DNA from: Protoeuglena noctilucae
Lineage: Eukaryota
Length of the DNA: 64,000 nucleotides
NCBI GenBank assembly: GCA_958009085.1
Contig: OY253669.1
Span: 1,426,001 to 1,490,000, forward strand
Direction: 5' to 3'
Part shown: one piece after another, positions 17,801-39,757 of the stretch
Layout: the number at the start of each line of letters is the position of its first letter
Numbering within the stretch: the stretch's first letter is position 1
Translations under genes and position numbers: made by a program
Notes under the pieces: generated by a model
The model's input: the letters and a program-made list of their open reading frames with translations, nothing else
What the model was told of the DNA's origin: nothing
Database searches by the model: none

Positions 17801-19923
17801 GTCGGCCTTGGGCTCCCCCGCTGGGGCCACACCGGCAGTCGGCTTGCTCCCTGCGGCAAGGGGCGCCTCGTTCCCCGAGCCCGACAGCCCCACGCCAGGC
17901 CGCCCTGCGCCGGTGCGAGGATCCAGTCGACCGGGGACCCCGCCAGCCGCACCCTCCCTCGCAGCAGCAGGGCCGGGAGCTGCTCGGGTCCCCGCGGCGC
18001 TAGACTGCGAGACGGTGCTGTGGCCGGGGGCGTCATCGTCAGAGTCGCTGCCCGTCTCCACTGACGGAGCACGCACGGCGCCTCGGGGCCCGCCCCCAGT
18101 CGCGGCCCTGGGCGCGGGGCCACTGCCGCGTGCGGGCTCTCCCACCGTGGCGCGCCCATGTCGCTCCGGGGGCGCAGGACGGTCAGAGTCCGAGCCAGAG
18201 GCATCGTCATCGCTTGATGCGCCCGTCCGCGCCACGCCAGCCGCCTGCGTGCCACGCAGGGATGCGTCGGAGGCCGAGGTCCCCGCAGAATCGCCACGAA
18301 CGTGGGCCTGTGCGGCAGGAGGACGTGCCCTTGCAGGCACGCCATGCGCGGTGCCCTTGGGAGGGGGCGTGTCCTCCTCTGAGTCTGTAAGACCAACCGG
18401 CGCCCGCCCACTGCCTGCCGGGCGTAGCGCAACGGGCGCCCCTCGCTCGCCGCGCGCCGGAGCAGGTGCGGGCGCAGCAGCGGCACCGGTACCCTTCCCT
18501 CCAGCACCCTTGGGCGGAGGCGTGTCCTCATCGGAGTCTGTCAGCCCAGCCGGCGCCCGCCCACTGCGTGTGGCACTCGGCGGGACGGGCGCGCCCCGTT
18601 CGCCACGCGCCGGAGCCGGCGCCTGAGCCGGTGCGGGCGCGGCACCAGCAGCAGCACCCCTCCCGCCCACGCCCTTGGGAGGGGGCGTGTCCTCCTCTGA
18701 GTCTGTCAGACCAACCGGCGCCCGCCCACTGCCCGCAGGACCCGGTGGGACGGGCGCGCCTCGCTCGCCAAGCGCTGGTGCGGGCGCGGCACCGGCACTG
18801 GCATCCTTCCCTCCAGCGCCCTTAGGCGGGGGCGTGTCTTCCTCCGAATCCGTCAGACCAGCCGGCGCCCTTCCACTGCACGTCGCACTCAGCGGGACGG
18901 GCGCACCCCGCTCGCCGCGCGCCGGAGCAGGTGCGGGTGCAGCAGCGGCACCCTTCCCGCCCGCGCCCTTGGGTGGAGGCGTGTCTTTGTCTGAGTCTGT
19001 CAGCCCTGCCGGAGCCCGGCCACTGCCCGCAGGACCCGGCGGGACGGGCGCAACTCGCTCGCCGCGCGCCGGAGCTGGCGCCGGTGCGGACGCAGTAGCA
19101 GCATCCTTCCCGCCTGCACCCTTGGGAGGGGGCGCGTCCTCCTCTGAGTCTGTCGAACCAGCCGGCGCCCTCCCACTGCCTGCTGGGCGCGGCGGGACTG
19201 GTGCGCCCCGCTCGCCGTGCGCCGCAGCTGGCGCTGGTGCGGACGCAGCAGCGGCACCGGCACCCCTCCCGGCCGCGCCCTTAGGCGGGGGCGTGTCCTC
19301 ATCGGAGTCCGTGAGACCGGGTATGTGATAGGAGGGCCTCGGTGCGGCAGCCTGGGCGGAGCCGCCAGACTTGCTGGGGCCCGCAGTCACCCCAGCAGCC
19401 GGACGCGCACCAGGTGCTCGGCCGGACGACACGCTGGTGCGAGCTCCAGGTGCGGCCGGCCTTCCCCAATCGTCAGAGTCTGATGCTGAGAGGTCACGGC
19501 CTTGGGGTCCCGTGGGCCGCGACGCAGCCACCGCGCGGCCCGCCTTCTCCTGCTCCATCTCCCATGAAGTCTTCGGGGCTTTTTTGCGCTGCGAACACGG
19601 GCAAGCGCGCGGTCACAGGCGCGGGAAACAGCGAGGAGGACGCAGAAAGACGCTTTCCGCGCTCTCTCCCGTCCTCTGCGCCGCTGAACTGGCCGGCAGG
19701 AACGCGCCACATCCTATCATCTGCCATCGCCTCGTCTGATCGTATTCCCCCGCGCGGCCGCGACTCCTACCTCGAACTGGAACATGGTGTCGACGTCGGT
19801 CGTTTGTCCCGCCCGCATGCGCGCCTCCCTCATTGATAAAGTCTGCTCGGCAGCCCGACGCGCGACCTCGGAGTTTCCGAAGCGCTGGGCCACCTGCTCT
19901 TTGGCCCGCGCCAGGGAAGACAT
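7403..19923 (-). CDS. FAM161: Very large FAM161/UPF0564-family (centriole/cilium inner-scaffold-like) protein with N-terminal acidic repeats and four C-terminal Cys-rich repeats; about 23 exons
   Basis: UPF0564-type motifs TVPRPFSF, FRANPLP, QQPFSFAER, PFRAAPVP, FRATPVPDFRRLH, TVPEEFHL and RWPYPR across about 12470-10730. Exon phases can be joined without a stop from ATG 19923 (MSSLARAKEQ) to TGA 7403. The family call is firmer than the full extent of the model. Confidence 0.75.
18330..19335 (-). repeat. Coding tandem repeat, about 7 units of roughly 150-170 bp (GLTDSEEDTPPPKGAGG...GERGAPVP...SGRAP)
   Basis: Seven TDS[DE][EK]D[TA]PPPK cores in ORF 15656-19558; the repetition is also visible at DNA level. 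Confidence 0.95.
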
Positions 19924-20335
19924 GGCTACAGAGGTTTGAATGTCGCCTGCGACGGGCGACCCCACCGCGGTCAGATGCCCCCCGAACGGAGCCGCAAACA
20001 CGCAGTCGAGATACCACAGCCAGAACTGCGACGATTGGGCAGGCAGCACTTCAGCACATGCGCGGAGGCCCGCTTCACCATGTTGCTTGCGAGTCAATTT
20101 GTTCGGCGACTTCAGCGACTCCGAGCTCGCGTGGGGGTGGTACTGCACTTGATGAGCGTCAAATAGCGAGGGGGGACACTGCTAGGCCATTGATATACCC
20201 TCCACGCAATGCAAGTATCGGGTTAACAGCGCAGATGCATCTGACCAAGAGGTCGAGGCGAGAGGAGGTGAGAGCTGTGAACTAGTGCTGCGGTAGTCGT
20301 GAAGAAACTCTTCCACTCGGACCTCTCTCGCCACC

Positions 20336-21470
20336 ATGGTCGCACTCATGGGCGCCCTTGTGTGCCCCCCTGCTGCCCGCACCTGCCATCCCGCGGCGAG
20401 CATGTCTTCCCGGGCTGCCATCAGCAACTCCTCAGTGTCGCTGAGGGCGTTCGTGCCCCGGGTTCGCCCGGTGGCGGCCTCCCGGGCCCAGCTTCGGGTG
20501 GCCGCGAGCGCGGAGGACATCAGCTACGTGATGGTCAAGCCGGACGGCGTGCAGGTGACGCATTTCTCTGTGTCGTGCAGCCATCCGTGCATGCAGCGGC
20601 CCGGCATCGCCCTCAGCTCGCTAGTTCTCGGGCCGTCAGCGTCAGCCAGGAGGTCCGATGTCGGCGGTCGTGCGGCCTGGCGCTCTGTTCCCAGTGGCGA
20701 TGGGCTTGCATTGCAGTCTTCTGATCGCGACGCGCGCGAGTGCCCCTGGCGCGGTCCCTCGACGCCGGGGCAGCCGGCTAACTCAACACCCGTCTCGCCG
20801 CGCCATTTGCTGACCCGAACGACGCTGGTCGCATGCATGCATGTTCATGGCGTGCAAAACAGCGCGCTGCTTTGCTCCGCGCGTCGGGATACCTCGAGGC
20901 CGTGTGGCTCGGCCGACCTGTGACGCGACCGTTCCAGCCACCTTTTCTGCAGCGTGGCGTGGTGGGCGAGATCATCAGCCGCTTCGAGCGCAAGGGTTTC
21001 CAGCTCAAAGCTCTGAAGCTGTACCAGACGCCTCGCGAGGTCGCGGAGGAGCACTACAAGGACCTCAAGTCCAAGCCTTTCTACAAGGCGAGTGGTGCGG
21101 GGTGGTGCAGATCGTTTGCATCGCCATCCACACGACACGCGGTGTGTATGGACGGCACACCAACGCAATGGGGCCACGCGCGCAGGACCTGGTGGACTAC
21201 ATCGTGTCGGGGCCTGTCGTGTGCATGGTGTGGGGCGGCCACGGGGTGGTCAAGTCCGCGCGGCTGCTGATCGGGGCCACCAACCCGCTGGAGGCGGCCC
21301 CGGGCACCATCCGGGGGGACCTCGCCGTCGAGGTGGGCCGGAACGTTGTCCACGGCTCCGACTCGGACGAGAACGCCGTGCGGGAGATGAACCTGTGGTT
21401 CGAGGACAGCGAGGTCATCGCCTGGAAGCCTTCCATGATGCCGTGGCTGAGGGAGGAGGGGCGCTTCTAA
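20336..21470 (+). CDS. NDK: Nucleoside diphosphate kinase, probably plastid-targeted
   Basis: Ser/Ala/Arg-rich N-terminus, then [78 protein letters not shown], with the catalytic His. Confidence 0.97.
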
Positions 21471-21645
21471 GAAAGCTGCGCCGTTTGGTATCCACCTGTG
21501 TTGCCGTCAGCAGCGTCTGGCGATGGTCGTCAGGCCAGGCCAAAGGAGTGCCGATCCGTCCACTTTGGCATCACGCCGTTGAATCCTCGATAGCAACAGT
21601 GGAACTGAGTCCTTTGCGGCGTTCGACAGGCCTGCCGCGCCCGGG

Positions 21646-22752
21646 ATGAGCGCCAGGGGCCCGGCACTCTGCATCGGATGTCGGTGTGCTGCGGACTTGA
21701 GCAGCGCACGGGCAATCTGGGTGTCCCCTTCCCCAAATATTAGAGCGCCCGTCGACAGACGCCGGCTCCGCGCCCACGACGATGCGGAGGCGTTTGGCAC
21801 GCCTCCGCCGTGGGAACTAACGACCTATTTCTCGAAGAAAAAGACCAGGATCGTCCAGAAGAACGGGGAGCTTCTCGATGACTTCAGTGTGATGCACGAA
21901 CTCACGCGGGAGCAGCGTTTCGGTGACCCTCGGAGGTGGAATGAGGGCAGGTGGTCAGGTGGCACAGGCGCCATGGTTGCATGCTAATCCCCTGCCCCCG
22001 CAGCGGTGGCCCTGCGTGTGGTGTCCTTGGAGAGCGGGGTCGACGAGGCAGTCCTCGCGGAGATGTTGCAGCGGCTGCTGACGTTGGTGCCGGGGAACGA
22101 GTTCCTGTCGCGCAGGGGCAAGGAGGGGTGGCTGGTCAGGCGAGGTCCACTGCGGTGGGCCCTTGGCGATGTGTCACGCTTGCACGAGTCCCTCCTCATC
22201 TGCTTCTCAGCGACTGCGAACGCGTGCAGGTTCTCGCTGGACGTGGAGCGTGTCGCAGAGCTGGCGCTCGCCATCAAGGCCGCGCTGCCGCACGCATCCG
22301 TGCCAGACATGCTGCAGGCCAGGCCTGAGATCCTGGACATGTCTGCAGCAGAGTTTCAGGCCGCACTGGAGTCGTGCCGAAGCAACTTGGGGGCGCAGAC
22401 CGTCGCAGACGTGGGGTCCCTGGTCAGCGAGCTGCCCGACTTGGTGAGTAGCCCCCGCGCAAGCAGGCAGGTGAAGTGCACGAGCCGTGAGGAGACACGA
22501 GGGTACCCCAGGGATTCCCACCCTCCCCGCGCAGTTAGACCCCCGAGTGTCAGAAGAGTGTGCAGCTGCTCTCGCGAGGCTCATGCCGGAAACCGACCCC
22601 GTCGCATTCCTGTCGTCGAGGTGAGGCCCGACACGCCAAGTGGCAGCCAGCACTACCCAACCATCTCAGGTCACCTCACAGGTTGCCCTTCACCACCTTC
22701 ACAAAACGCCATTTGCTGTCCCCGCGCAGTCCGAGCATGCTCTACTCTCTAG
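21646..22752 (+). CDS. Hypothetical helical protein, possibly organelle-targeted and weakly mTERF-like
   Basis: Transit-peptide-like start; exons contain LQRLLTLVP and IKAALPHASVPDMLQARPEILDM..LVSELPDL. The 3' end is uncertain. Confidence 0.45.
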
Positions 22753-22836
22753 TAGACTTGCGCAAGCAGTCTAGAGGCGACCGAGACGCGCCCCTCCTAT
22801 AGCAGGCACAGCCGCAACGCATTGCAAGCGAAAGGA

Positions 22837-24439
22837 TTACTTGCCCGCGCCGCCGAGGCGCAGCTGCTGGAGGATGCGCCCACCGCCGGGCACGGGGTGC
22901 GGCCCCTTGTACGTCCCGAGCTGCGCCTCCGAGTTGGCCTTGGCGAGCTTGATGAGGATGTCCTGCGCCTTGTCCCAGTTCTCCTGCTTCCCGCCCCACG
23001 TCTTGAGGGTCGTGGCCTGCAGCGCAGCAACAGGTTGAAGCGCCGTCGGTGGCGGGTCAGGGTGTGTGTGCATTAGCAGCATAATACCACTACGTCTTCC
23101 TCAAGCAGTCAAGCGTCATCCATGCGATGATACATTGCGCCCGCCTGTGCCAGGCACGGCGCCCTCGCTGTGGTCCCTCTCCCGCTTCTCACCTGCAGGG
23201 CCCTGCCGTACGAGAACGTGAGCGACCACGGGGCGTTGGGGCACTCCTTCTGGAGCGCATTCAGGTTGATGCTGCTCTCCTCCTCCGACATTCCGCCGGA
23301 CAAGAAGTGGATGCCGGGGACCGCCGCCGGCACGGTGCGCAGCATCGTCCGCACGGTGTACTTGGCGACCTCCTCAGGGGAAGCCACAGGGGCGTCGAGG
23401 CCGGGCAGGCACATGTTGGGCTTGAGGAGGATGCAGTCGAGCATGACGTCGTACTCGTTCAGCATGCGGAAGACATGCGAGTAGACCCGCTCGCTGATGT
23501 AGGCCGTGCGCTCGATGTCGTAGGCACCGGGGCCCAGCGTGACCTCGGGCTCCACGATCGGCACCAGGCCGTTCGCCTGGGCAATCTGCAGGCAGGGCGG
23601 GGCGCGTGGCGTGCTTGGTTTGACCGCGCACGTGCGGAGGCGCAGCCAGCATCAGGGATGCGCCGTGAGCCACAGCAGCGAGCCTTTCCTGGGCGTAGCG
23701 AGCCAACCCGTGAGCATTCTCGCATATCGCCTGGGTCGACGGGCACGCCTGCTCGTCGACCTTGATGACGGCGCGCCACTTTGCAAAGCGTGCCCCCTGT
23801 TTGTAGTACTCCCGACAGCGGTCGGCCAGTCCGTCGAGCCCCTGCGTGGCCGTCTCCCCGTCCGTCCCAGGCAGGGGCTGCAGGCCCGTGTCCACCTTGA
23901 TGCCCGGCACGATGCCCTGGTCCTTGAGGATGTCGACGAACTGCTTGCCGTCGCGGCTCTTCTGGTACAGGGTCTCCTCGAACATGATGGCCCCGGAGAT
24001 GTACTTCCCAAGGCCGGGGGCCGTGTAGAGCAGCTCGCGCCACGCGCGGCGGTTGTCCTCCGTGTTATCCACGCCGATGGTGGCCAAGCGCTTCCCGGTC
24101 GTCGCGTTCGACTCATCTGCAAGCGATTCGTGATGATGGAGGCGCTTTGGTGCGGCCATCTCACGAACAGCTGTGCAGCGCACCTGAGGCGAGGATTCCC
24201 GCCACTTACAAACAGGTGCGCACTGCAACGGCCCCAGCAGGCACCACACCTGAGGCAAGAATGCCCTTCCCGCGCGTGGCGATGTACTTGGCCGTCGCGG
24301 CGAGCTCCTCCCTGTGCGGGTTGGTCCGCTCAAAGGCCGACGTGGCCTGCACCGCGACGGGCCCTGCCGCATGGGGCTGCGGTCGGCCAGCGGCCCGAGT
24401 CGCCAATGGCGTCCCGCTCAGGAAGGTCGTTGGCGCCAT
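22837..24439 (-). CDS. FBA: Fructose-bisphosphate aldolase class I, plastid-type
   Basis: Transit peptide, then [72 protein letters not shown] (Schiff-base Lys), [10 protein letters not shown] and TFSYGRALQ. Confidence 0.97.
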
Positions 24440-25028
24440 TGAGTTGCACGTGACGCTGCAAATGCGGAAGAGCTGTTGGGATATCACGAGCTTACCGGCG
24501 CTCGCACGCGCAGTTCCTGAGCGATCCGACGATCGCGATGGCTTAATATGGATCGAATTCAGATGTGACAGCAATAGGCATTGCATTCGCCCAATGCCTC
24601 GTTGGCTCGGGCATAACCAGCGGCATCAACGATATACTGAACGACGCCAACGCTTCCAGGTGATGAGGTTAAAGCATTTGCGTCACATTGCATGTCGCTA
24701 GTTGCGTGGATTCGTCGCCTGGGCAAAGTCACCTTGTGCAGCCCGGCGGGAGGTGATGGGGGCCACGCCACTGTGCCTCTCCTTGATCACTGCTATGTAG
24801 TGATCTCAATGTCCTGGCGCCAGCTCCATGCACCCCATCAAATGCGCTTGGCAGAAGACCTACCTGCTGTCGGTCAGGGCAAAGCTGTGGGCGAGCCAGG
24901 ATTCATCTTCTGACCCGTATAATGCGTCACTGGTTGTTTTACGGCCAAAAAACGCCGACTGTGAGGGCGTCGGGCTGCAGCGCCATCCATAGTCGCGAGG
25001 AAGCACCTCTGTGCACCTGCGGGAGGGG

Positions 25029-27287
25029 ATGGGGGGCTGGAAGGCCCTGGGCCCGGTGGTAAGGACGCTCCTCAATTGGAACTCTCCCAGAAGCTGACGA
25101 TCCATGCGTTGCAGAAGCAGAAGGCGTCCCACATCTCACGCGCAGAGCTACGGGGGCGCCCCGCCTCAGCAGACGGTCACCGGCGCGGGAAAGACGCTTT
25201 CCCTGAAGGTCCTCTCTCTGGACGAGATCGCCGGGAGCTTCGATCCGGCCGCTCTCCTGGAAATCCACCCGGAGGATGCGGCAGAGTTGAGGGGAGGAGG
25301 CGATGCAAGTGCCTCGGCCGGGCCGCTGCCGATTTTCCGCGCGGATGGCAGCGGTAAGTGGGTCGCTGCAATGCTTCATCAGCATGCAGGTCTAGAGGGA
25401 GAGAATTGCGCGATAAAGGCGCGCGTCGCGCCCGCAGAGGCCGTCGGCAGCGCCCAGCCCTCTGCTCGGGTCCCGCGTGGCTGCCTGGCTGCCTCTGCCA
25501 TGCACTGCCGCAACCTCCTCCTTGCCCCTGGCGACCAGTACTCCTTCTCCCTCTTCGCTCCGAGCGGCGGGCCAAGCGACCTCACGTGTTTGGAACTGGA
25601 GGCAAGCATGCATCGCTGCTGACACTGCAGTCCCCTGCGGAGATGACCCAACCAAGCTATCCAGTGACAACACGTGACATCTCTCGCCGCAGGTCCTCCG
25701 GTCATGGGCCCGGGGCGAGGAGGACGGAGTGGACGAGGACGACGAAGGCGCCCCAGCAGTGGTGCTAGAGGCTCGGGAGGCGGGGCGGGAGGTGCTGAGG
25801 TGCAAGCTTGGAGGATGGGCGCACGTGGGAGAGAGGGTCGTGGTCCGTGCACAAGGGGGCGCTTTGGCCGTGCTGCGGGTGTGCGGGACGCACGTGCTGA
25901 GCGCGAGGGAGGAGGCAGAGGCCATCGGCCACCATTGCTTCAGGGGTCGGGTCACGCCCGAGACGCACGTGCGCGTGGTCGGGCCCTCGGGCCACAGCGG
26001 GGTCAGGTGCGGCCGGCCGCATGCATGCCCTCCCAAAGTCGTGTCCCATGTCGCGGGCGCCGCTCGCCGATCGAAGCAAGACGGTTCCATCGGCGCCACG
26101 CACTCCTCTGCCTCGCAGCCTCCTGAACCCCGACCGCCCCTGGTCGAGCGACGCCCCGAGCGCGGCCGACGCCGTGACTGTCGAGACGACCGACGGGCAG
26201 GGAGGCCAGGGCGATCCGTACGTGGTACAGCGGCGCCTGCTGCGGCCGTGCATCCGGCTCACTCAGGCGCTTCGGGGCGGGCCGGGGCGCAAGGATGACG
26301 ACGGCTTGCGAGAGGCCTGCCCTGGTGTGCCGGGGCTGCGAGGTGCCACGGAGGGCGAGGTCGATGCCGGGGATGCGGGGGTTGCAGGCGCGGGGCCTGT
26401 CCAGAGCATCAGGGTGGAGGTGGACACGCTCACGTTCGACCGAGTCTTGCTGTTCCTGGAGGCCCTTCACCTGGGCCGGGATCCCCCAGACTTCGCCGCG
26501 TATCACATGGGTGAGGGCGGAGGAGCTGGTTAGGTCGTGGCACTTGCGTTCGCCTGTCGGCCAGGGGTTAATTCTCCGTCACCCTCTATGCCTGGCAGAT
26601 GCATTGGAGGCGGCCGCGAGCTCCCTAGGCCTGCGTGCGCTGGAGGAGTTCTGCGCGGCCAAGCGGGGGGCGCTGGCAGAGCGCGTGCGGGACTGGCGGT
26701 GGGAGGAGGTCGTGGCCGGCAACGACGCGGGTGGGTGCTTGCTGGCTGTCGACGGGATGGTCCTGGACGTCAAGCGGTGGCTCCCGGAGCACCCCGGCGG
26801 CGACCGCATCATCCCCGCGCAGGCGCTCAACGTCGACAGCACGGGTGAGCGCACACTGGCTAAACATAGGTCAGGACCGTGCGGGTCTCCCTCAGACACG
26901 CAAGTCATGTGCACCCTCCCCTCCCCACCGCCTACCGCAGTGTTCTTTGAGCTGTACCATGTTACCCGCGAGTCTTTCTTGCTACTCAAGGAGTTCTACG
27001 TGGGAGAGGTCGTGCCAGAGGACCTGTGAGGGGTGCCCACGCGTGCCTGTTGTGCTTGTCGCGCGATCCATGTCTCTTGGAAGAGCAGGGCGAGCCTGGA
27101 CATACGCACACATGCACGCGCCTCCCGTCCCTGCCCTCGCAGGCCCCTCATCCCGCCCCCCAGGCACGGGCAGGGCTTCCGTGATGGCGACGTCCCAGCG
27201 CCGTCGGACCACTTCCTGACCCAGCTGCGTGCCTTCACGCCCTGGCGGCAGCAGAAGGGCGAAATCAAAGTTTTCAAGAGCTTCTGA
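25029..27287 (+). CDS. Multidomain protein: double-psi/CDC48-N-like region, BTB-like region and C-terminal cytochrome b5 heme-binding domain
   Basis: Cyt-b5 motif VDGMVLDVKRWLPEHPGG..DST|VFFELYH..LLKEFYVGEV has both axial His. BTB-like motif VDTLTFDRVLLFLE..LEAAASSLGLRALEEFC; also LEIHPEDAAEL. Start codon uncertain. Confidence 0.75.
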
Positions 27288-27403
27288 AGCTCCAGCTGTG
27301 AAGACTACAACAACGCATCATGTCTACCCTTCTATAATCATGTCGCGATGACCATGGACGCACAGCGACGTTGAACCCCGTGTTGGTCTCAAATAGAGGA
27401 GTC

Positions 27404-29957
27404 TCAGAGGGGCCCCGCGGGGGGCGGCGTGGCCCCCGCATCGACCCGCGTGACGCGCGCCCCCAGCGCACGCAGCTTCTCCTCCAATCGATCGTATCCA
27501 CGGTCCAAGTGACCCAGGCCCTCGACCACCGTGACCCCCTCCGCCGCCAGCCCCGCCACCACCAGGCCCGCAGCCGCCCGCAGGTCCCCAGAGACCACCC
27601 GGGCCCCTCGGAGCCGGTCGCTGCCGGCGAACTGCGCACAGCGGCCCGCCGCGTCCACCGAGACGCAAGCCCCGAGGGCCGCGAGCTGGTCCACGTGCCG
27701 CATCCGGTCCTCAAACACCGTCTCTGCGACACAGGGCCCAGAGACCGGCAGTCGCAGGAAGGCGCATGCAAAGGGGACACCCCTGAATGACAGAACAGAG
27801 AAAGCGCAGGCGGCCCTACAACACCTGGAATGCTTGGCTGCATCCTCGTCGCAAGCCGCATGGGCTCACCCGTGACGGTGGATGGCGTGCTGCACAGGGG
27901 CAGCAGGGCCATCAGCACCGGCTGCATGTCAGTGGGGAACCCCGGGAAGGGCGCCGTGGTGACGTCGACACCGAAGAGCGGCCCAGATACGTGCACGGAC
28001 AACGTGACGGGCCCCTCCGCTCCCGTAATGGCATGGGACGACGCCTCGCCACCCCGCGCTGGTGCTTCGCTCGCAGTGACCCCCGTGCCTCTCGGCGACG
28101 CCACGCCGTGACACAGGGTACCGTCCACCCCCGCTCTCCGTCGCTCGACCTCGTCACCTACCCGCACCTCCACGTCCGCCACGGGCGCGCCGCTGCATGC
28201 CCCGACGACCCCGACCGTCCCACACCTGCCCAGCCCCGCCTCACCCTCCCGGCCCCGGGCCAGACCGTGCCCAGCACCGTGCCCGGCCCCGCTCGTGCAC
28301 GACGGCAAGCGAGACGCCCGACCGTCTGTCAAGCCGTTGCCGCGCGCCCCCTTCGCCGCATCGCGAGACCCGCGGCCGGCGCCACCGCCCACTGCATCCC
28401 GCGCGCTGTGAACGCGGATCTGGCACCCCGCAGCTGTCAGGACGTCCACCAGCGGCCTCACGTGGCTGAGCATCACGGGACCCAGGGATATCGACGACCC
28501 CGTGGCGGCTGCAGCCACCATGAACGTCCCCGCCTCAATCCTGTCCGGGATGATGGCTGCGGGGTGCAACGGAACGGCGGGGCATGAAAGTGACAGTCAA
28601 TCAGCGCATGTCACCCAACAGGTCACTTGTGCACCCTTTGCACTCGTAACGTACGCATGCATGCATGTATGGCGGGGCTTAAGTGCACGCACCGTGCTCT
28701 GTGGACCCCAGGCGCTCCACCCCATGGACCGTGATGGTCGATCCCGTCTGCCGGACGCGCCCACCCATGCCGTTGACGAGGCGGATGAGGTCCTGCGGCC
28801 CAAGGTAAGAGGGTGACCACGATATCATCCTGGCTTTGCCACAGCACGCACCCCGCCGGGCGGCAAAGGACAGCGCGAGACACAGCGCGCCCTCGGCCGA
28901 CGCACCTCGACTTCGGGCTCCCTCGCGGTGTTGCGTATCACGCTGCGGCCCCTGGCCAGGGCAGCGGCCATGACGGCCGTCTCCGTGGCACCCACGCTGG
29001 GGAACCGCAGGCGGAAGTCGGCGCCCACGAGCCCACCCAATGGGGCCTGGGCCGACACCATCCCTGAGTCGGGGCAAACCCGCACGGAGGCGCCCAGCGC
29101 GCGCAGGACGTCCACGTGGATGTCCACAGGCCGGCGACCGATGTCGCAGCCCCCAGGCTGCGGGTGCGGGGTTGAGGGTGGCCTCAGGTCTGAGTAGGGG
29201 AGCCTGGCATCAGAGAGCTAAAAGCCTCACGCAGCTCTGGGTCCCATCGCTCACCAGCGGCACGTGGGCTACCCCGAGGCGAGCGAGGAGCGGCCCGATG
29301 ACGAGGAAGCTGGCCCGGAGACGCGAGGCCACGTCTGCGGAGGGTGCCGCTCCCGACAGCGCCGCCGCGTTAACGACCAGCCCGGCAGACTCCCGCGACA
29401 TGCGCACCCCCAGGCCTTCCAGCTGCGTGGCGGGAGGGGTCGGCGATGTAGCGCACCGCAGCACCGTCGCCCGTCCCTCCCCGGACCCCGGACGCGTCGC
29501 CGCGCTCGTTGCTCACCAGATCGCACATCTCCGTGACGTCGGCGAGGTCTGGCACGTCGCGCAGGATGACCGGGTCGCGCGAAAGGAGGGCGGCCGCGAG
29601 CGCGACCAGGGCTGCGTTCTTGGCCCCCGAAATGGCCACGTGGCCCGACAGCCGCGCGCCGCCCTCCACCAAAAGACAGCCTCCTGCACCTCGACAAGAC
29701 GACGGGGCGGACCTGGGTTACCGCTAGCGGCGCGGGCAGCCCGCAACTGAGCGACATCGACGCCCTATGCGACGCGCGCGGGTGAGACGCGGCGGCGCCG
29801 CTTCGGAACGTCGCCCATCGCAAGGACCGGCGCTTCGGGGATTATGGGAGCCTCACCCCGCCTGGCATCTTCCCCGGAGCCCTCGGTCGCTTTTGGCAGG
29901 TGCGCCAACGCATGAACGCAGCCAGTCCCGCCGCTCCAGGAGGGCTGCGAAGGACAT
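27404..29957 (-). CDS. murA: UDP-N-acetylglucosamine 1-carboxyvinyltransferase (nuclear, intron-containing, probably plastid-targeted)
   Basis: Motifs [37 protein letters not shown] (catalytic Cys), [49 protein letters not shown] and HLDRGY; six GT-AG introns. Start approximate. Confidence 0.96.
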
Positions 29958-30810
29958 GAGCAAGACCGATGCGTGGACTCTCACAGCCGACCCATCATCG
30001 CGCATCCACACACTGCCCACCGGCCACGGAGTGTTTGAACATGGCAAGCGCACGGGCAGCCCGCCATTGCCCCGCCCGGACCAGGTGAGGTCGACTCACG
30101 TGCTCCCGGCGCAGCCTGCGCCATGCGTCCCTGCGCTGCCACGACTGGGGGCACGTACGACCCGTCACCCTGCCCAGGGAGCAGGATGCGTGCCTGTGCC
30201 CGGCCGGGGGACCCGCGGTCACGGGACAATTTGAAAGCAGCTGTCCTGTCATGCCATCGCGCATGCGCGGGGGGCCTGTATGGGCCTGTATGTGCGGCAA
30301 GCAATGCCGATGCGCAATCTGCCCCGGCTCCTCGCTCTGGCTCTCCGCGCTTTCAAGTCGCAGTCCTGATGAACCAAGCTTGAGCTGAGATCAGTTGAGT
30401 CACGGGCTTTCGGCCAACTCTGACGAGTTTGCAATGCCAGCGGCGGATCGTGCCTTGCCGTGCGCCCGAGCTCGGGCCTCGCTGACCCACTATCGTTGCA
30501 ACCTCACGGCCAGCTTCACAAAGCACTTCTAAAGCCGCAGAGGCAACCAAGCATCCGACTCATGCGGCGCAAAACCACAACGCGAGGGCAGGGCATGGGC
30601 ATTGTTACGGCGCTGCCCCTCAAAGCATGTACAGACGCGAGCGTGCTGAGTGCCTAGGTGCAAACGCATCGTGCACGCGCCGCGGTCCCCCACGGCGACC
30701 TGGGATAGCCTGCCCGGGGGCTTTGCGCAAAGCTGTCCTTGCGCCGGCATCCATCCACGGTGGCCGGGACAAGCCCGTGAAGACGGCGTGGCCTCGCCCT
30801 GCCACTACTC

Positions 30811-31659
30811 CCTGATGACGCCGGGCCGGCCGCCCTTGGTGGTCTGTTGTTGCGCGTCGCCACCCTGCATCACTTCCTGGATCGTCGTCTGCTTGTCCAG
30901 CTCCGTGTACCCGCCCACGCCGCACAGGTCCCCCCGACGGTACTGCGGGGAGGGAAAGCGGGGAACGTCGTCGCACGCCGGGCAAGCGGTCGAAGGGACC
31001 CCCCGGCTGGCCTCTGGCGGGTAGTGCAGTCCGGCGCGGCAAGGCCGGCTCTTTCCGCGTGTTGACGGACCGAACGTTATCGTCAGAGTCTCTGAGCCGG
31101 GAGCGCGGGGGCGCGCGAGCGCAAGGCGGGGGACAGCTCACCCATGCGATGAAGAGGAGCCCGAGGACGCAGAGGACCGCCCACGTCATGACCACGGCCG
31201 TGAGCGAGACACTGGGACCGGTGCTCTCCGTGACGTTGGAGGGGACGGCATTGATGTCGCCCTCGTCCATCAGGCCACGGCCAGAGAAGCTCAGCTCCCC
31301 CGAGGCCCCCCCGGCAGCACGGGCAAAGCCGGGCCCGAAGAAGGGGCTGCGCGTGGAGAGGGAGGCACGAGGACTGAGCGCACGCCATCGGGACGGAAGT
31401 TCCGTGCCGCCAGGAGAGCGCGCGGGACCCAACGTGAGTGGTCCCTTCCCGAGACCGTTCGCCCCCCGCCCGTGGGCCACGGCGCGGGACGACCACGCGA
31501 CTCTGTCGCAATACACGTTCCGGAGACATGGAGAGCGAACGGCAGCCTCTCCGCGAGCCCGCGAGCGCAAGGCCCGGGCCGAGTAGGTCACCTGGGCCGG
31601 GCCGAGGCGCCGACGAAGCCGGATGAGACGAGGACGAAGATCACGATGGAGTCCAGCAT
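30811..31659 (-). CDS. Small predicted type I membrane protein (signal peptide plus one TM)
   Basis: MLDSIVIFVLVSSGFVGASARP | SPFF..SGRGLMDEG..NVT..LTAVVMTWAVLCVLGLLFIAW; last exon frame uncertain. Confidence 0.45.
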
Positions 31660-32226
31660 TTAAAACGGACGGCCCGTCCTCGACCGCTTGGCCTCCCGAT
31701 TAACGCCAGGCGGCCTCACTCGCGTTTGCAGCCCCCCACGCCCCGCAGACGTCGGCAGGGACGGCGCTGTCGATAGGACAGCGACGCGAAGGAAGCACGT
31801 TGATGAAGCAGAGATCGGCGCGGGTCGACGGGAGCCTGAGCGCGCGATGCGGGGTGGGGTCCCACACTCCGAAAGCGATGTGCGCGGATGGGGCAGGGGT
31901 GGTCGTCTCAAAACGAGCCAGCGTGATCAGGGCCATCGATAGCGGGTTGTGGCTAGGCGGGGGACGGAAAGGGCCGGTGCCGATTCGCGTCTTGTCGGGC
32001 AGTGACACCGTCAGATGAGACCCTGCTCTTCTGCGCTAGCCCCGTGCATCACCACGCTCCCCAGGCTGAGGAAGGACGCTGCGCAGCACGATTATCAACT
32101 CAGCAAACCCTGACTGCTAGATACGAACGAAAACATTTCAACGGTAGGGCTGCGGTGCCTAGGATGCCTCTGCATGAGGCCTGAACAAGAGCGCGCAGGG
32201 CAGCGCTGGAGAGCCGGGAGCTTCCT

Positions 32227-35200
32227 TTACACGGGGGCGACCCTGCCCGTGAACAGGCTGGTGACGCTTTCCCACGACTCGATGGCGGACTCGGACGCGG
32301 CCAGGTACCACTCCTTGAGGCTGACCATCCTCTCCGCGACGCTCAGCCGGTCGTAGGCGAAGTTGAGCGAGCCGGAGACCACGTCGCCCACGTTCGGGGC
32401 GAACAGGAACGACCGCGCGTCCCTGCGGGCCCAGCAGCGGCGCGGACGGCATCGCACGCGGAGGCTACCCACGTTGGCTCACGTGCCTGCTACCCACTCC
32501 TGACACCTAGCCCTGCCCAGGCAACAACAACACTGCCAGCTGCTCACTTGGGCATGGTGGTGCTGCCGATTTCCAGGGGGCCCGCCAGCAGAGCGCGCTG
32601 GGTGACGAGCGCCAGCGGTGCCGCGCCCGCGCCCTTTTCCTTCTTGCTCAGCCCCGACTGGATCTTGCTCGGAAGCCAGAGCTTCTGCAGGTGCGGGGTC
32701 ACTGGCACGTGAACGGGGCCCTCCGCCAGTGCGGCTCCTGCGGCAGTGTCTGCAAGCTCATGAGCCCGGCCTGCTCTGCTGCCCGGGCACGCACCAGCGC
32801 GAGGTCGTTGCGGTGCTTGGCCTCCCACTCCCGCCGCGCCTCCGGGTGCGCAGCGCACGTGCTGGCGGCGACGTACATGGAGCGGTAGAGCGTGGTCAGC
32901 ACGTCGTTGTTCACACCCCACCCCACGTAGCGGATCAGGAGGTTGGGGAGGAAGAAGGCATGGAACAGCTTGGCCTCCCGGAGGACCTTGACAAGCTCCG
33001 TGAAGCCCAGGATGCGCCAGCAGAGGGCGTCGGGGGAGGACGGGTCCAGCAGCTCGCGCTGCTTGCGCCGGATGGCAGCGCGCCGCTGCGGGCGATGCGG
33101 GGAGGGCAGCGGCTCAGGCGGTGTCCTGCCGTTGCGGCGATGCTGTCGGGCGCAGCTGTGTGATCAGCAAGGATCCCCACAGCGGCGCGCGCCACTGCCC
33201 TCGCTCGCCTTGCTGGCGTTGTTGGCCTTCTTCGCCTTGTCACCCTGGTCGCCCTCCTCGTGGTGCCCGTCGTCGTCGCCCCACACCAGGGCGTCGCGGT
33301 TGCTGTCCCACATCTCCGTCCAGAAACGGAACCAAATCGCGTGCGCCGGGCTCTGGAGCGCCCACTGCTGCCGCAGGACCAGCTGCTGCAGCTGCCCGGT
33401 CTTGTCCAGCATGGCGGCGATCTCCTTCACCGCCGTCGGCTCCACGGTGCGGATCATCTCCAGTACAAACTCCACCGGGGCGCGGTTGTTGTCGAACACG
33501 AAGAACCAGAAGGCCGGGGTGAGGACGTTGTTGAGCCTGCGTGCGGCGCGGCCACGGGGGCAGGCATGGGAGCGCGCGGGCAGGCGAGGGCGGTCGTTCG
33601 TGCCGTGGCTCGCCACCCACTCACTGCACGAATTGGTCCCGGAGGTGGATGCGGTAGGCCAGCACGCGCAGATCGTACTCGTTCATGGCCTGCAGCACGA
33701 CGGGGAAGTTGTGCCGCAGCACGTCCAGGAACGTGCTCCCGTCCTTGAGCCACTGCGGGCCCACGCCGAGCTTCGTCTCGAGCTTCCCGGGCTTGCGGCG
33801 CTCGCCGACGTCCCCCTCGTCGTCCTCCTCCCCCTTCTCCATCTCCCAGAGCTTGGCGCCCGCCTCTCCGGTCTTGCCCGCCAGCCACGTGCCCATGGGC
33901 CGCGCCTTGGCCATCAACTGCGGCACGAGGGGCGGGGTTTGAGTGGGCAGGTGTTGGCGGCAGCGAGTGGCCAGTTAACGCCGTGCAGTGCGGGACGCCA
34001 CAGCACCCATCCAGCGACCCCCACGCACCGCGTTCCCGTCGCCGCGCATGTTGAGGTGGATGCCCTCGGCGCCCGTCTGAGGGATCACGGCGTAGGCAGG
34101 GCCGACGCCCGCGGCGCTCTTCTCCTTGTCCGCAGCATCGGGCACCACTGCGTGCAGGGATGGGACGGCGACGTTACTTCACATGATGTGCCAGCAGGCG
34201 CGGACCTCGTCATACACACAGCGAACACATGAGCAGGTGTGGGGTTCCCGAGGGTCACTCTGCGGCAGGCACCTTGCTCGCCGGCGACGAGCATCACGGG
34301 GTGGAACCCGGAGGCCATCTCGCGCCTCAGGCGGGCCTCGATGGCGCTCTTCGCGGCCAGGTTAACGACCGCGCCGTTCTCAGCGCCCTCCGTCTCGTCC
34401 GTCCCCGTCGCGCGGCTGTCCTGCAGCAGAAGGTCCCGTGCGGGGAGGTGAGACCACTCATGCGATAAGTGAGACCCAGTCATGCAGTTATGTGAGACCC
34501 ACCCACCGCCGTCACCTGGCGGGAGCTGCCCCCGATGCGCTGCAGCACCCTGCCCTTGGCGCCCGGCAGCGCGGTCGTGACCTCCTCGGGAAGCGTGTAC
34601 CGCGCTCCCTTGCGGGCGTCCCAGTTGGTCAGCCCCAGCAGCGCCAGAGCCACGCGGAACGTCAGAGAGTCGACGGCGCCCATCGACAGCAGGGGCGCGA
34701 TGAGCGACTTGGGCCGACGGAGCTGCTGCGTCCACTGCGAGGGCGGAGGGACAGTGTAACGGTCGCCGCATCCCGGGCAGCCACGGGAGCCGCAGTGACG
34801 GGAGCGGCACCGGAGCTGCGGCGACGGGAGTGTCACAGAAGCGGCCCCGGTAACTGGGCTCACCTGCGCCGCCAGCAGGGCCGGCCCCCATCCCGCGTCC
34901 TCCACGAACTTGGGGTTCACGTTGTAGCCCCTGTCCTTGGCCCGGCGAGCCTTCCATGACCCCGGCAGCTCTGGCGCCGCCTTGGACAGGATGTAGTTAA
35001 GCGCCAGCACCTCCAGCACGTCTGGGTGGTCCTTGGGAACGGCGACCCTGCGCAGAGAATGGAGGAGGAGGAAAGGGTCGAGTGGGAGGTGTGACGGTGG
35101 CGCACCATCGCTGATGGGCCCAGGTCCGCGCTCGTGTCACGCTCACATGTCGCACGGGACGAGGGGCCAGATGCGCCGCAGGATGCCTCTTGTGATGGGC

Positions 35201-38200
35201 AGGAACAAGCCCAGGGCGAAGAACGGGCGGAAGGCGATGAAGGCGGGCTGGAAGACGACGACGGTCTGGTCCGAGAAGCACAGCTTCATCTGTCGCCTGC
35301 CCTTCCCGCTGGCGCCCTGGAACGCCGGCACGCCCCCCTGCAGAGTCACGGCAGCGCAGCGCCGGTCGAGGAGCGAAGCACGGAACGTGAAGCAGCGCCA
35401 GGGTGCCCGCTCCCCGCGCCCCCATCCCTCGCCTGCACGTGCATGTCCGACGCCATGTGCCTGCCGGAGAAGACATCCATGGTGGCGCCGTTGCCGGTGT
35501 TGGTGGGGATGCCGCGCCTGTTAAACATGAAGACCGTGCCCACGCGGGGCTGCAGCGTGACGCGGGTCTCCTGCGGCACCCAGCGCACCGACCCGCTGAA
35601 CCCTCCCCGGTCGTTGAAGGCTCCGTCGATGTGCAGCGCCTGCCCGGGCACGGGGCCCTGGAAGGACAGGTCCACCGCCTTGCGGTTCATCGCGCGCGTC
35701 ATCATCCTGCGGGCCGGGGGAGGCACATTGATGCCATCTCTGCAGGACGTTCCCTGCCCACGCTTAGCCACAAATCCATACGCGATGCAAGGCGTCCCAG
35801 CCATGCCAGCCACTCACCGGTAGTACCGCAGCGCAACCACGTACGGGTCCGACAGGTTGAGCTCCAGGAACTTGGGCAGGTGGTCTGGGTCGATCTCGAC
35901 GGGGGCCACCTGCCTGTCGAACATGAGGGGCTCGCCGAAGAGGCCGTACGTCTTGACCGTCACGCCGCACACCTGGAAGGGCCGCTTGGTCGGGTTGTCC
36001 GCCACGAACATGACACGGAAGGGGTACGGCTGGATCCACAGCTTGCCCATCTCCTCCCTGCATGACAGCAGGCCAGGTGACGAGGGAGGTGAGGTGCGAG
36101 GTGGTCGTGCGGTACGTGCCTGGGCGGTACTGGGGGTGCGACAAGCGCTGGGCACCCCATGCAACAAGCGCTGGGCACCTGGGCATGCCGTCCGCGTCGG
36201 TGAACCTCCAGAAGACGTCCTGGCCCTCGAGCTCCTCCACCACGCGCCTCCGCAGCATGAGCACGCGCGAGTCCTTCGTCTGGTGCCAGAACTCAACGAT
36301 GCGGGACCTGCCGACCTCCTTCGCCATCAGCGTGTACTTGCGCAGCTGGACAGCCGTCGCGGAGGCGAACTGGAGGAAGGCTGCGTGGGACCACACGTTA
36401 GGGCGCAGGTGAGAGTGGGTGAGGCAGGCCACACACCCAGCATCGTCACCCGCAGCGACAGAATGTAGCGCGCGCCCCTCACCAGCGCGCCAGAACGGGT
36501 GCCACAGGAACATCTTGACCTCCTTGGAGAGGGTGTGCAGGTCCGTGCTCCACGTCCCGAGCGCCTCGTAGTACGTTGCCGTTTCCCCGTCCATGGAGCT
36601 GCGGGAGTGGCACAGATTAGCGGGCTCATCCCACTCGGCCGCAGGGTGCCACAGCCGTTGCTTGTCAGGACGCACGGGAGGTGCGCAGCGCGTGGCAGCA
36701 GTGCCATGCGGGGACGCGCGTCTGCGCCCAGGGCCCCGCACCTGACGAACTTGAGCGTCGGGAAGAGCCGGCGGATGATCTTCTTGGCGCGGGGCCAGTA
36801 CTTCTCGAGCAGGCCGCGGCAGAGGACGGCGAGCGAGAACCCCATGGCGACGAACCCCAGCACCTTCCCCGTGCGCGGGAGGAACGTGATGAAGGAGCTC
36901 ACGAGGAGCCAGAAGGTCCAGAAGCGGTTGTTCCACTCCAGGGTGGTGGACTCGCGGTCGAGGTACGGGGAGGTGAAGAAGGTGACGCCGCCCATGACCC
37001 CCATCAGGCCCGTGGCCCAGAGCTGCTGGATGGTGGGCGTCTGGCTGAGACTGTTGCTGCCCACGATCAGCGTCTTGGCGGCCAGGATGTAGATTTTGTA
37101 CGCCCACGCCGACTGGGTGTAGGAGGCGTAGAGCGTGCGGTACGGGTTCATGAGCTGATCAGCACTCGCCAGCTGCTCTCGGTACTGGGCGTTCCCGAAC
37201 GTGACCTCGTCTCCCGCGGCGTCGAAGGCGGTGCTCTTGCCGTTGATGCAGACCACCTGCGATGCACCAGATGTGGGTATATGGGACGCGTCCACCTCGC
37301 GCAGACGACGCTATTGTCAGCCCGGATGGCATCACCGCTAGCGCTCATGTGTGGTGCCGCCAGCGTTGATGTTATCGCTGACCCCCGGTCGCAGATTGCG
37401 ACGCCCGCTCGCCTTGGGGCGGTTGTGGTAGGCCTTGATCAGCGCCCAGATGGGGAAGCCCAGGATGAAGAAGGCTACGATGGGTGCGGACCCCAGGACG
37501 AGGGCGATGCCCAGGTTCGGGATGTACCAGTCGGCCTTGCAGACGGCCTGCATCTTCTCGATCTCGAACGGGTTCTTCGAATTCGGGTCAAACTCGCCCG
37601 TCCCCGTGACGGAGTTGTACGGCGTGCCAGACCACCGCCAGGCCAGCCACTGCAGGTAGGCGCCCTGCGGGTGGCGGCCGGGGTGACATGGCATTCACGT
37701 GGCTGCTTTCACGCCGCAGCAGCACGCGCGCGTCTTCTTTCCATGCGCCAGCGCGCCCCTCACCTTGCAGCCCCACACTTGCGTGATGGCGTTGGAGAGG
37801 GGCATGTGAATCGTGCATCCGATGAAGACATACCACTTCATCTTATCGACGGCGCTCATGCCGAACGTGTTGCGGACGAACGTGCCGAGCCACTTGGGCA
37901 GGTCCTCCAGCTCCCTCACCGGCCTGCCCTGCTGCCCCTGCGGTGCGTGCGGCACAAGGGACCGTCACGACTGCCAACGGAATCTGACGCCGCCATCGCC
38001 AGCGACGAGTCCACGCACCGTCTTGCTCGTCTCCTCGTCGACCTCCTCCTGGGAGCGGAGACGCAGGATCCACCTCACGTACCCCGGGACCTCCTTCTGC
38101 TTCATCGCCGCCCACGACATGGCCTCGTGGCCGTCGCGCAGCCGGTCGGGCGTCTCGGTGTCGAAAGCGACCTTGGCGAGGATGAAGTAGAACTCCACCG

Positions 38201-39297
38201 CGATGTAGATGCTAAAGATGCCTCCCAGCACGAACAGGCTGACGATCACGAAGCTCCCCGCGAGGCCCTTGTTCTTGAGCCACGAGAGGTTCAACGTGAA
38301 GAAGGAGAACGGAAAGCCGAAGATCTTCTTGAGCAGGCCCCACTGCTTGACGTCCATGACCAAGTAGGCCCCCACGATCTGCAGGTGGTCGCGGACAATC
38401 TGCAGGCAGAATAAAGCAGGATGGTTTTGGATGCTCGGGCCTTCGAAAGCTTTTGGAGAGAGGAAGCGGCGAGGGAGAACCCCCTCACCTCGATGGTCGT
38501 CAGGTCGAAGTCCTGCACTGAAGCGGCCGCCTGTGCGCCGGTGCTGTTGTCGTCCTTGCCCTTGCTGTCCTTGGGTCCGTCCAGCCGCTCCATCATCTTC
38601 TCGGAGTACTCCCGCTGCTTCTTCTCCGCCTCCTTGTCTGCGTCATCGGACACGGCCCCGGCGCCCTCGGCCGCGGCCAGGGCGCTCAGGAGGCGTGCGG
38701 TCACGTCGGAGCGCGACTGGAACAGCGTGATCTCCTCCGCCTGATCGAAAACCTGCAGGCCTTTCCAGCGGGGTGGCCTGATGAGGCTGGCATGCTTTCC
38801 GCGCGGGCGCTTTCGCAGGGGCGCTACCGTGACCGCGCCTCGCCTCCTCATGGCGGCTCTTGGCGAGGGTCTTGCGGTATCGCAAGCCTCGCTTCTCCTT
38901 CTTGGCGACGTCGATGCCCAGGGCCCTCTGAAGCTCCCGGATGGGCTCCTCGGCCTCGCTGAAGTCGAAGCGCAGACCCTCCGCAGCAGTCCCGATGTAA
39001 TCTGCGATCTCGGAGATGACCTTCCAGGCCACCCCACGCAGGGCCTGGTCTGCCTGGGGCCCAGAAAGAGAGGAAGGGAGCGTCGCTCTGAAGCTTGTTG
39101 ACCCAACTTTACCCCACCCGGGTCTGGCCCTTGCGCAACGAGCGGCGTCCTCGCGTCGATGCACGGGTCCAACGCACCTCCTCACGAACCCTACGACCCT
39201 CATCCGCGGCCCTCTGGGCGATCTCGTGCTGATCGCCGAAGGAGTCCGCCGCTGACACGAAGGACCCCCTCCTGTCGTCGACCTCCTCCGCCGACAT
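32227..39297 (-). CDS. Large multi-pass membrane protein (about 7 TM, TRP/flavin-carrier-like TM module) with long cytosolic C-terminus; function unknown
   Basis: Spliced exons give hydrophobic helices and the pattern YRTLYASY..WAYKIYILAAK..P.IQ..SPYLDRESTTLE. About 17 exons; stop at 32227; start may lie further upstream. Confidence 0.7.
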
Positions 39298-39757
39298 CGA
39301 CACCCGCTGAGAGAGGGTGATGCGGGGACTGTCCCACCCTCTCCACCCTCTCCACGGGCGCAGAGCTCGCTCGCTCTCGCCCTCTCCCGACGGTTTGCTG
39401 CGCGATACTCGTCTCCAGCACGCTCGCACAGCACCACGCAGTCTGTCTGAGGATAGAATCGTCAAAGCGCCGGCAAAAAGGCCCCCCTGTACCAGTCAGA
39501 CAAATGGAGTCTGACCATTCCGAGAGCGAAGACTTGGCTTAAAGCAGGCCCTGGCTGCTCCTCCATTGTCAAGAGGAACATTGTACTGCGGTGCGCGCTT
39601 GAGGTGGTTTTGAAGACAAGGCGGCGCTGCGAACGCGGCCGCGTGCGTCGTGTTGTGCTGCGGGCCCGCTGTGACCGGCGGCGCGTCCCCCACCCCCTTT
39701 GGATTTGCCAGCCCGCACAAAGCGTCGCGTGGCGCTCGTGCGGCTGACCACCACACC

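What the first reader, a model, noticed from the sequence alone, without database searches (positions are those of the whole stretch)
23586..23688. Apparent GA-AG intron in the aldolase gene
Seen (minus strand): CGC TAC GCC CAG|gaaaggctc...cctgcctgcag|ATT GCC CAG GCG AAC GGC CTG. Removing these 103 nt gives [19 protein letters not shown], which matches the conserved [19 protein letters not shown] motif. The length is not a multiple of 3, so it must be spliced, and no GT donor fits the register. The only alternative I see is a weak CTC|GCTGCT donor that would give a non-conserved ERL. Known: GA donors are described mainly from dinoflagellates and a few animals. Together with the GC excess, this suggests an unusually permissive spliceosome.
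Basis: partly seen in the sequence, partly recalled or inferred. Interest (0 to 1): 0.7.

Follow-up and report, generated by a model that had tools for sequence, protein, structure and literature searches.

The report
GA-starting intron in algal aldolase
An aldolase gene of a marine green alga has one intron that starts with GA instead of the near-universal GT and is cut out exactly in RNA; this rare intron type is already known from other organisms and looks like an exception in this alga, not its rule.

Summary
Confirmed. The 103-nt segment 23688-23586 (minus strand) is a real intron with GA..AG ends. RNA contigs from two metatranscriptome runs (one study) skip exactly these bases, and no alternative register gives GT-AG, GC-AG or AT-AC. 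DNA contigs from two studies read GA with no differences, so it is not an assembly error.

GC donors are abundant: 355 of 2077 predicted, 3 of 14 RNA-shown. GA is not. In 1.01 Mb an ab initio scan picked GA 8 times against a decoy mean of 8.2, which bounds GA at about 1% or less, probably below 0.5%. The U1, U5 and U6 recognition motifs found are standard. Best reading: a rare U2-type GA-AG intron carried by strong flanks (CAG|GAAAGG, 7 of 9 U1 pairs), as with Trema SYMRK. I found no green-algal report in my searches.

The parts
23586..23688 (-). 103-nt phase-0 intron with GA..AG ends (donor CAG|GAAAGG, acceptor CTGCAG|ATT)
   Evidence: RNA joint in X8 and X9, DNA identical in X2 and X3; registers; protein conservation
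23672..23673 (-). in-frame cryptic GT 15 nt inside the intron, not seen used
   Evidence: in frame; score -5.5, percentile 0.0 among predicted GT donors; not among the joints shown
24250..24455 (-). exon with the start codon (ATG at 24439); N-terminal Ala/Thr/Pro-rich extension, probably a plastid transit peptide (judged by eye)
24456..24732 (-). 5' UTR intron, GT-AG, 277 nt
   Evidence: RNA joint in X8 only
24117..24249 (-). GT-AG intron, 133 nt
23689..24116 (-). coding exon ending in the Gln codon CAG before the GA donor
   Evidence: Pfam PF00274 positions 19-162
23193..23585 (-). coding exon after the GA intron; holds the IVEPE and LLKPN motifs (active-site role recalled, not from a call)
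   Evidence: PF00274 positions 162-294
23576..23577 (-). site 9 nt downstream of the acceptor where many relatives appear to carry an intron; none here
   Evidence: 25 of 76 homologous fragments break here into V or A; RNA and DNA are continuous here
23017..23192 (-). GT-AG intron, 176 nt
22837..23016 (-). last coding exon with stop codon; the spliced product is a 396-aa class I fructose-bisphosphate aldolase

Best explanation
A single, genuine U2-type intron whose donor reads GA at +1/+2, spliced by the ordinary major spliceosome as the main product. Shown: exact removal in RNA, GA in the DNA, and the need for this junction to make a normal aldolase. Inferred: the standard U1 still pairs at 7 of 9 positions (-3 to +1 and +3 to +5), and the exon-end AG and the +3..+5 AAG also suit U5 loop 1 and the U6 ACAGAGA box (pairing rules recalled), so strong flanks make up for the odd +2 base. 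The genome's many GC donors follow the same rule. The GA most likely arose by one substitution from a GC (or GT) donor of the type AG|GYAAG. GA donors are rare in this genome, about 1% at most.
For: RNA joint of 103 nt in 2 of 2 RNA runs laid, DNA identical in 2 of 2 DNA runs. Mean depth of the bin holding the intron (34.8 and 10.6) equals the spliced contig's depth times 561/664, leaving no room for an intron-holding contig (my arithmetic). 116 of 116 motif-matched homologues, of 120 examined, have the spacing that this junction gives. The acceptor is normal, 77th percentile. AG|..RAG context is found in 283 of 355 predicted GC donors against 338 of 1722 GT donors, and in 3 of 3 against 2 of 10 RNA-shown ones. 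AG|GCAAG occurs 40 times and AG|GTAAG 22 times among predicted donors. snRNA motifs are standard. GA picks 8 against a decoy mean of 8.2, with spike-in recall of 58% (GT contexts) and 89% (GC contexts).
Against: RNA evidence is assembled contigs from one study (P3), so splicing efficiency and minor forms cannot be measured. No clear branch point: CTVAY-like motifs lie at -84 and -70, outside the usual -50 to -30 peak, and only a weak TCAA lies at -38. No orthologous intron from a close relative was found, so the GC or GT ancestry is not shown. The genome-wide bound rests on an ab initio model over 3.9% of the genome; its GC matrix is self-trained, so the context contrast among predicted donors is partly circular. 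The U1 search scored 41 of 427 candidates.
Confidence: 0.8

Rival explanations
1. The alga has a spliceosome with a relaxed +2 requirement: GC at about 17% plus a small but real GA class (tens to a few hundred introns, 0.1-1%), well above plant levels. This would be an early stage of the state seen in Eurytemora, Oikopleura and Symbiodiniaceae.
For: GC donors 17% predicted and 3 of 14 RNA-shown, against 1.2% in plants (PMC6310983). The site has the AG|GAA context described for copepod and tunicate GA donors (PMC5714493, PMC7072748). The scan cannot resolve rates below about 1% (upper bound 0.85-1.3% if all 8 picks were real). 24 joints were not shown.
Against: GA picks never exceed decoy noise at any prior from 0 to -8. 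In the first 664 kb the aldolase site was the only GA pick at prior -2. None of the 5 other GA picks opened in full looked convincing, and one is contradicted by a clean canonical model (by eye, no homology search). No U1 variant was found.
Confidence: 0.15
2. The GA is an assembly or sequencing error, or a strain variant, and the transcribed allele has GT or GC.
Against: DNA contigs of two studies carry GA with 0 differences, one at depth 247. No other letters are listed for any run over 19.9 kb. Sample S1 has both DNA holding all sampled words (X1) and RNA holding the same share as X8 and X9 (X10).
Confidence: 0.02
3. The joint is a reverse-transcriptase template switch, or comes from a non-spliceosomal, structure-guided cut.
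For: A 3-letter direct repeat (CAG) flanks the joint.
Against: The 13 GT and GC joints shown have overlaps of 1-7 letters as well. The region folds worse than shuffles (z +1.53). The acceptor and donor flanks are U2-like. The joined form is the only one assembled and the only one giving the conserved protein.
Confidence: 0.02
4. The intron is a recent introner (transposon-derived) insertion that brought its GA donor and took its acceptor from a CAG target-site duplication.
For: The position is uncommon: 0 of 76 homologous fragments break there. CAG flanks both ends. Introner families with up to 40% GA donors are reported (PMC9860276).
Against: Single copy in G000. No hit to any other predicted intron, and only 15 of 2078 introns have any 50-nt hit to another. 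No end-to-end pairing. One annotated Haematococcus model (P0101) hints at an intron at the same point.
Confidence: 0.05

Closest known systems
GA-AG intron 12 of Trema orientalis SYMRK (PMC10668435; passages read)
   Same: A single constitutive GA-AG intron in a functional gene of the green lineage, in a genome where GA donors are rare (0-14 per plant annotation, about 0.01%).
   Different: There the GC ancestry, efficiency and function were shown, in a genome with 0.5% GC donors. Here the host is a chlorophyte with about 17% GC donors, the ancestry is inferred and efficiency was not measured.
Common GA/GG donors of Eurytemora affinis and Oikopleura dioica (PMC5714493, part 1 of 2 read; PMC7072748, passages)
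   Same: Same local signal: AG at the exon end and A at +3.
   Different: There GA/GG make up 10-12% of curated introns (3.2% GA among RNA-supported sites in the survey), GA exceeds GC, and one U1 variant was noted. Here GA is about 1% at most, far below GC, and no U1 variant was found.
GA-AG introns of Symbiodiniaceae (PMC5100056, one passage; other papers seen only as listings)
   Same: GC and GA donors in a marine alga.
   Different: Up to 65 GA-AG introns per dynein gene there; here one confirmed case. The lineage is unrelated.
Vertebrate FGFR1-3 'dead-end' GA donors (as summarised in PMC4176328 and PMC7072748, passages; original paper not read)
   Same: Efficient use of a U2-like GA donor.
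   Different: FGFR use is alternative and depends on a GT donor 6 nt upstream. Here the site appears to be the main one, and position -6 reads GC in a weak context, not GT.

Membership tests
U2-type non-canonical GA-AG intron | exact removal from RNA with GA first and AG last | tested here: met
U2-type non-canonical GA-AG intron | GA present in genomic DNA, not an error | tested here: met
   runs X2 and X3 from two studies
U2-type non-canonical GA-AG intron | U2-like donor flanks complementary to U1 | tested here: met
   7 of 9 matches, against means of 5.8 (GT) and 5.7 (GC); U1 5' end standard
U2-type non-canonical GA-AG intron | acceptor of the genome's major type | tested here: met
   77th percentile of predicted acceptors
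U2-type non-canonical GA-AG intron | branch point near the 3' end | tested here: inconclusive
   consensus-like motifs at -84 and -70, weak motif at -38
U2-type non-canonical GA-AG intron | lariat formation and dependence on U1/U2 | not testable with these tools
   needs lariat sequencing or snRNA blocking
Genome-wide GA-donor systems (Eurytemora, Oikopleura, Symbiodiniaceae) | GA donors at several per cent of introns | tested here: not met
   8 picks among about 2077 introns, equal to decoys; bound about 1%; ab initio, 3.9% of the genome
Genome-wide GA-donor systems (Eurytemora, Oikopleura, Symbiodiniaceae) | AG|GAA donor context | tested here: met
   CAG|GAAAGG
Genome-wide GA-donor systems (Eurytemora, Oikopleura, Symbiodiniaceae) | variant U1 in the donor-binding site (proposed for E. 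affinis only) | tested here: inconclusive
   one U1 gene found by three searches, standard 5' end; a divergent copy could be missed
U12-type intron | ATCCT after the first two bases (consensus recalled) | tested here: not met
   donor continues AAGG; U12 snRNA search blank but uninformative
Introner | repeated near-identical copies | tested here: not met
Introner | target-site duplication or terminal inverted repeat | tested here: inconclusive
   3-nt CAG overlap is ordinary here; no end pairing in the fold; not all introners have them (PMC9860276)
FGFR-type dead-end GA donor | GT donor 6 nt upstream | tested here: not met
   position -6 (23694) reads GC in the context CTAC|GCCCAG

The most novel reading that the evidence does not exclude
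This early-branching chlorophyte has loosened the +2 rule of its 5' splice site without changing U1, U5 or U6: about one intron in six starts with GC, and a minority class of GA donors (tens to a few hundred genome-wide) has begun to appear by GC-to-GA change. It would be a small haploid green-algal genome caught part-way to the copepod and dinoflagellate state, where the protein factors that relax +2 could be sought.
Probability: 0.2. Interest if true: 0.6.

Novelty: new member of a known kind. Interest (0 to 1): 0.33.

Why it matters
It is an RNA-backed GA-AG intron in a conserved, expressed enzyme gene of a green alga, a group for which my searches of the paper library found no report (open-licence papers only). 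A GT/GC-only gene finder mis-models this aldolase: my own model without GA chose a GC donor 42 nt upstream and lost 14 residues. The site is a ready minigene for testing how flanks rescue a bad +2 base. The larger lead is the roughly 17% GC-donor share, more than ten times the plant average, which does suggest relaxed +2 selection even though GA itself is rare.

Tried and rejected
Assembly error: rejected. Introner origin: no copies. Structured or template-switch joint: no support. Genomic copies from close relatives in metagenome contigs: 80 loci, all 60% identical or less, not used. GG donors as a second odd class: 9 picks in 664 kb were listed; the one in a recognisable gene (dephospho-CoA kinase-like, by eye) is better explained by a GT 9 nt on, and GG is at decoy level. 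Other GA picks: of the 7 besides aldolase at prior -2, 3 were opened in full, plus 2 from prior -1; the script stopped before the rest, which I saw only as 60-residue translations. None was tested by homology search. The two aldolase paralogues have no GA donor in their predicted introns, and the C13 copy runs through this motif without an intron. The U12 snRNA search was blank and uninformative. The single-gene tree gives only weak placement (support 80-81). No earlier notes exist for this genome.

Full report
Observation. On the minus strand the gene is a class I fructose-bisphosphate aldolase of 396 residues in four coding exons. The segment 23688-23586 is 103 nt long, starts GAAAGG after the codon CAG and ends CTGCAG. 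Of 120 homologues, 116 matched the motif pattern and all 116 have six residues between ARYA and GLVP, the spacing that only the GA junction gives. Of the 4 unmatched, two are substitutions with the same spacing, one is a chimeric record, and one (P0101, Haematococcus) is an annotated model with an insertion at exactly this junction.

RNA and DNA. Five RNA runs hold the gene or part of it, four of them at share 0.69, all four from study P3. I laid two RNA runs and two DNA runs on 20100-40000. Both RNA runs have one contig joining 23689 to 23585, with 255 letters on each side. The joint can slide by three letters, and only the GA..AG register ends in AG; none is GT-AG, GC-AG or AT-AC. The DNA contigs of X2 (study P1, possibly the window's source) and X3 (study P2, depth 247) cover the site with no differences. 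Contigs drop rare forms, so this is not a measure of efficiency. The RNA also shows a 5' UTR intron (X8 only). Of the 14 splice joints shown (24 more were hidden), 10 are GT-AG, 3 GC-AG and 1 GA-AG.

Is GA common here? G000 has 26.3 Mb in 27 contigs. I took 950 kb from nine contigs besides the window (1.014 Mb, 3.9% of the genome) and self-trained a gene-finding HMM. With GT and GC only, the first version recovered 11-12 of the 14 RNA joints, which had also seeded it; the misses were the GA site, the UTR intron and one long intron. The final model predicts 1722 GT and 355 GC donors (17% GC, 12-22% per region). I then allowed all 14 other dinucleotides at an equal prior. At log prior -2, GA was picked 8 times, the aldolase site among them, and the 13 decoys 3-20 times (mean 8.2). 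GA did not stand out at any prior. Changing real donors to GA in memory showed recall of 1006 of 1722 (GT contexts) and 316 of 355 (GC contexts). If all 8 picks were real, the upper bound is 0.85-1.3%; if only the aldolase site is real, 0.3-0.5%. The aldolase site was chosen beforehand, so it gives no rate. Five other GA picks were opened in full and none was convincing by eye. The spike-in uses introns that the model already finds, so recall may be overstated.

Mechanism. One U1 gene was found by a covariance search (41 of 427 candidates scored), a DNA search and a degenerate pattern; its 5' end is the standard one. The U6 ACAGAGA box and U5 loop 1 are standard too (standard forms recalled). 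The GA donor matches the U1-complementary consensus at 7 of 9 positions, above the means for GT (5.8) and GC (5.7) donors. GC donors here show the same compensation: AG|..RAG in 283 of 355 against 338 of 1722 GT donors (partly circular), and 3 of 3 against 2 of 10 among RNA-shown joints (independent but small). The acceptor is ordinary (77th percentile); the branch point is unclear. The region has no unusual structure (z +1.53). I infer normal U2-type splicing carried by strong flanks. The nearest common donor types are AG|GCAAG (40) and AG|GTAAG (22), each one change away, so a GC-to-GA origin, as proposed for Trema SYMRK, is slightly favoured but not shown.

Intron position. Because the intron is phase 0, unspliced reading frames in protein databases show its first codon. 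Among 76 fragments, 25 break four residues after ARYA into V (22) or A (3), as expected for GT or GC introns 9 nt downstream of the site here. 46 run on, 3 break there into other residues (E, G, I), 2 lack the motif, and none breaks at the GA site. This gene lacks that widespread intron, and both sites follow the same six letters, GCCCAG. A 9-nt slide and a loss plus a separate gain at a CAG site both fit; the Haematococcus model hints that the upstream site is used elsewhere. This is unresolved. The intron is single-copy and there is little sign of intron families. A single-gene tree puts the protein with two unnamed records, weakly (80-81), beside the Ulvophyceae, Trebouxiophyceae and Chlorophyceae rows; I call the host a chlorophyte and go no further.

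Comparison with what is known. GA-AG introns are a known rare class: 14 of 222,263 human introns (cited in PMC5714493; part 1 of 2 read), 0-14 per plant annotation, and a fully functional case in Trema SYMRK (PMC10668435; passages). They are common in Eurytemora, Oikopleura (PMC7072748; passages) and Symbiodinium (PMC5100056; one passage), and in some introner families (PMC9860276; passages). A plant survey gives GC-AG as 1.2% on average and says algae show very few minor non-canonical combinations (PMC6310983; passages). Template-switch criteria are from PMC4176328 (passages). Searches listed no paper on a GA donor in a green alga; I judged this from titles, abstracts' openings and term counts. 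The library lacks most subscription papers, and I opened no supplements; the species tables of PMC6310983 and PMC9860276 could hold algal GA counts. Earlier scan notes list single GA donors in fungi, unchecked.

Verdict. Real and RNA-supported; a new member of a known rare class; not evidence by itself of a GA-permissive spliceosome. The high GC share is the more general oddity and deserves a genome-wide count from raw reads. Interest 0.33.

Noticed in passing
G000, 1.014 Mb over nine contigs; window 21088-21185 (+), 22140-22229 (+), 33086-33208 (-): GC-AG introns make up about 17% of predicted introns (355 of 2077; 25 of 135 in the window), more than ten times the plant average; three are RNA-shown, all AG|GCGAG.
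   Followed up: partly
window 23576-23577 (-): The widespread aldolase intron site of relatives lies 9 nt downstream of the GA intron's acceptor, and both sites follow GCCCAG; possible intron slide.
   Followed up: partly
window 21600-23000: One X8 RNA contig carries the aldolase joints, and joints of a plus-strand gene (four introns between 21922 and 22729) share its depth, suggesting overlapping 3' ends of convergent transcripts merged in assembly.
   Followed up: no
window 24456-24732 (-): 5' UTR intron ending 16 nt before the aldolase start codon, seen in X8 only.
   Followed up: no
window 27390-29700 (-): A MurA-like gene (UDP-N-acetylglucosamine enolpyruvyl transferase, recognised by eye from its translation, no search run) with a long low-complexity insert; a peptidoglycan-pathway gene in a chlorophyte.
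   Followed up: no
window 18250-19330 (-): Long low-complexity coding region with imperfect repeats of roughly 150-180 nt inside a large multi-exon gene.
   Followed up: no
G000 C1:531638-531880 (+), C5:435184-435250 (-): Two GG-AG picks with AG|GGGAG context persisted to a strict prior in the first scan; GG overall is at decoy level and neither was tested with RNA.
   Followed up: partly
G000 C20:523585-523744 and C20:547394-547513: The single U1 and U5 genes found lie 24 kb apart on one contig; U1 scores just under the Rfam cut-off (65.9 against 69.5).
   Followed up: no
protein P0101: The public Haematococcus lacustris aldolase model has a 20-residue insertion ending in VQ at this junction, probably a mis-called acceptor.
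   Followed up: no
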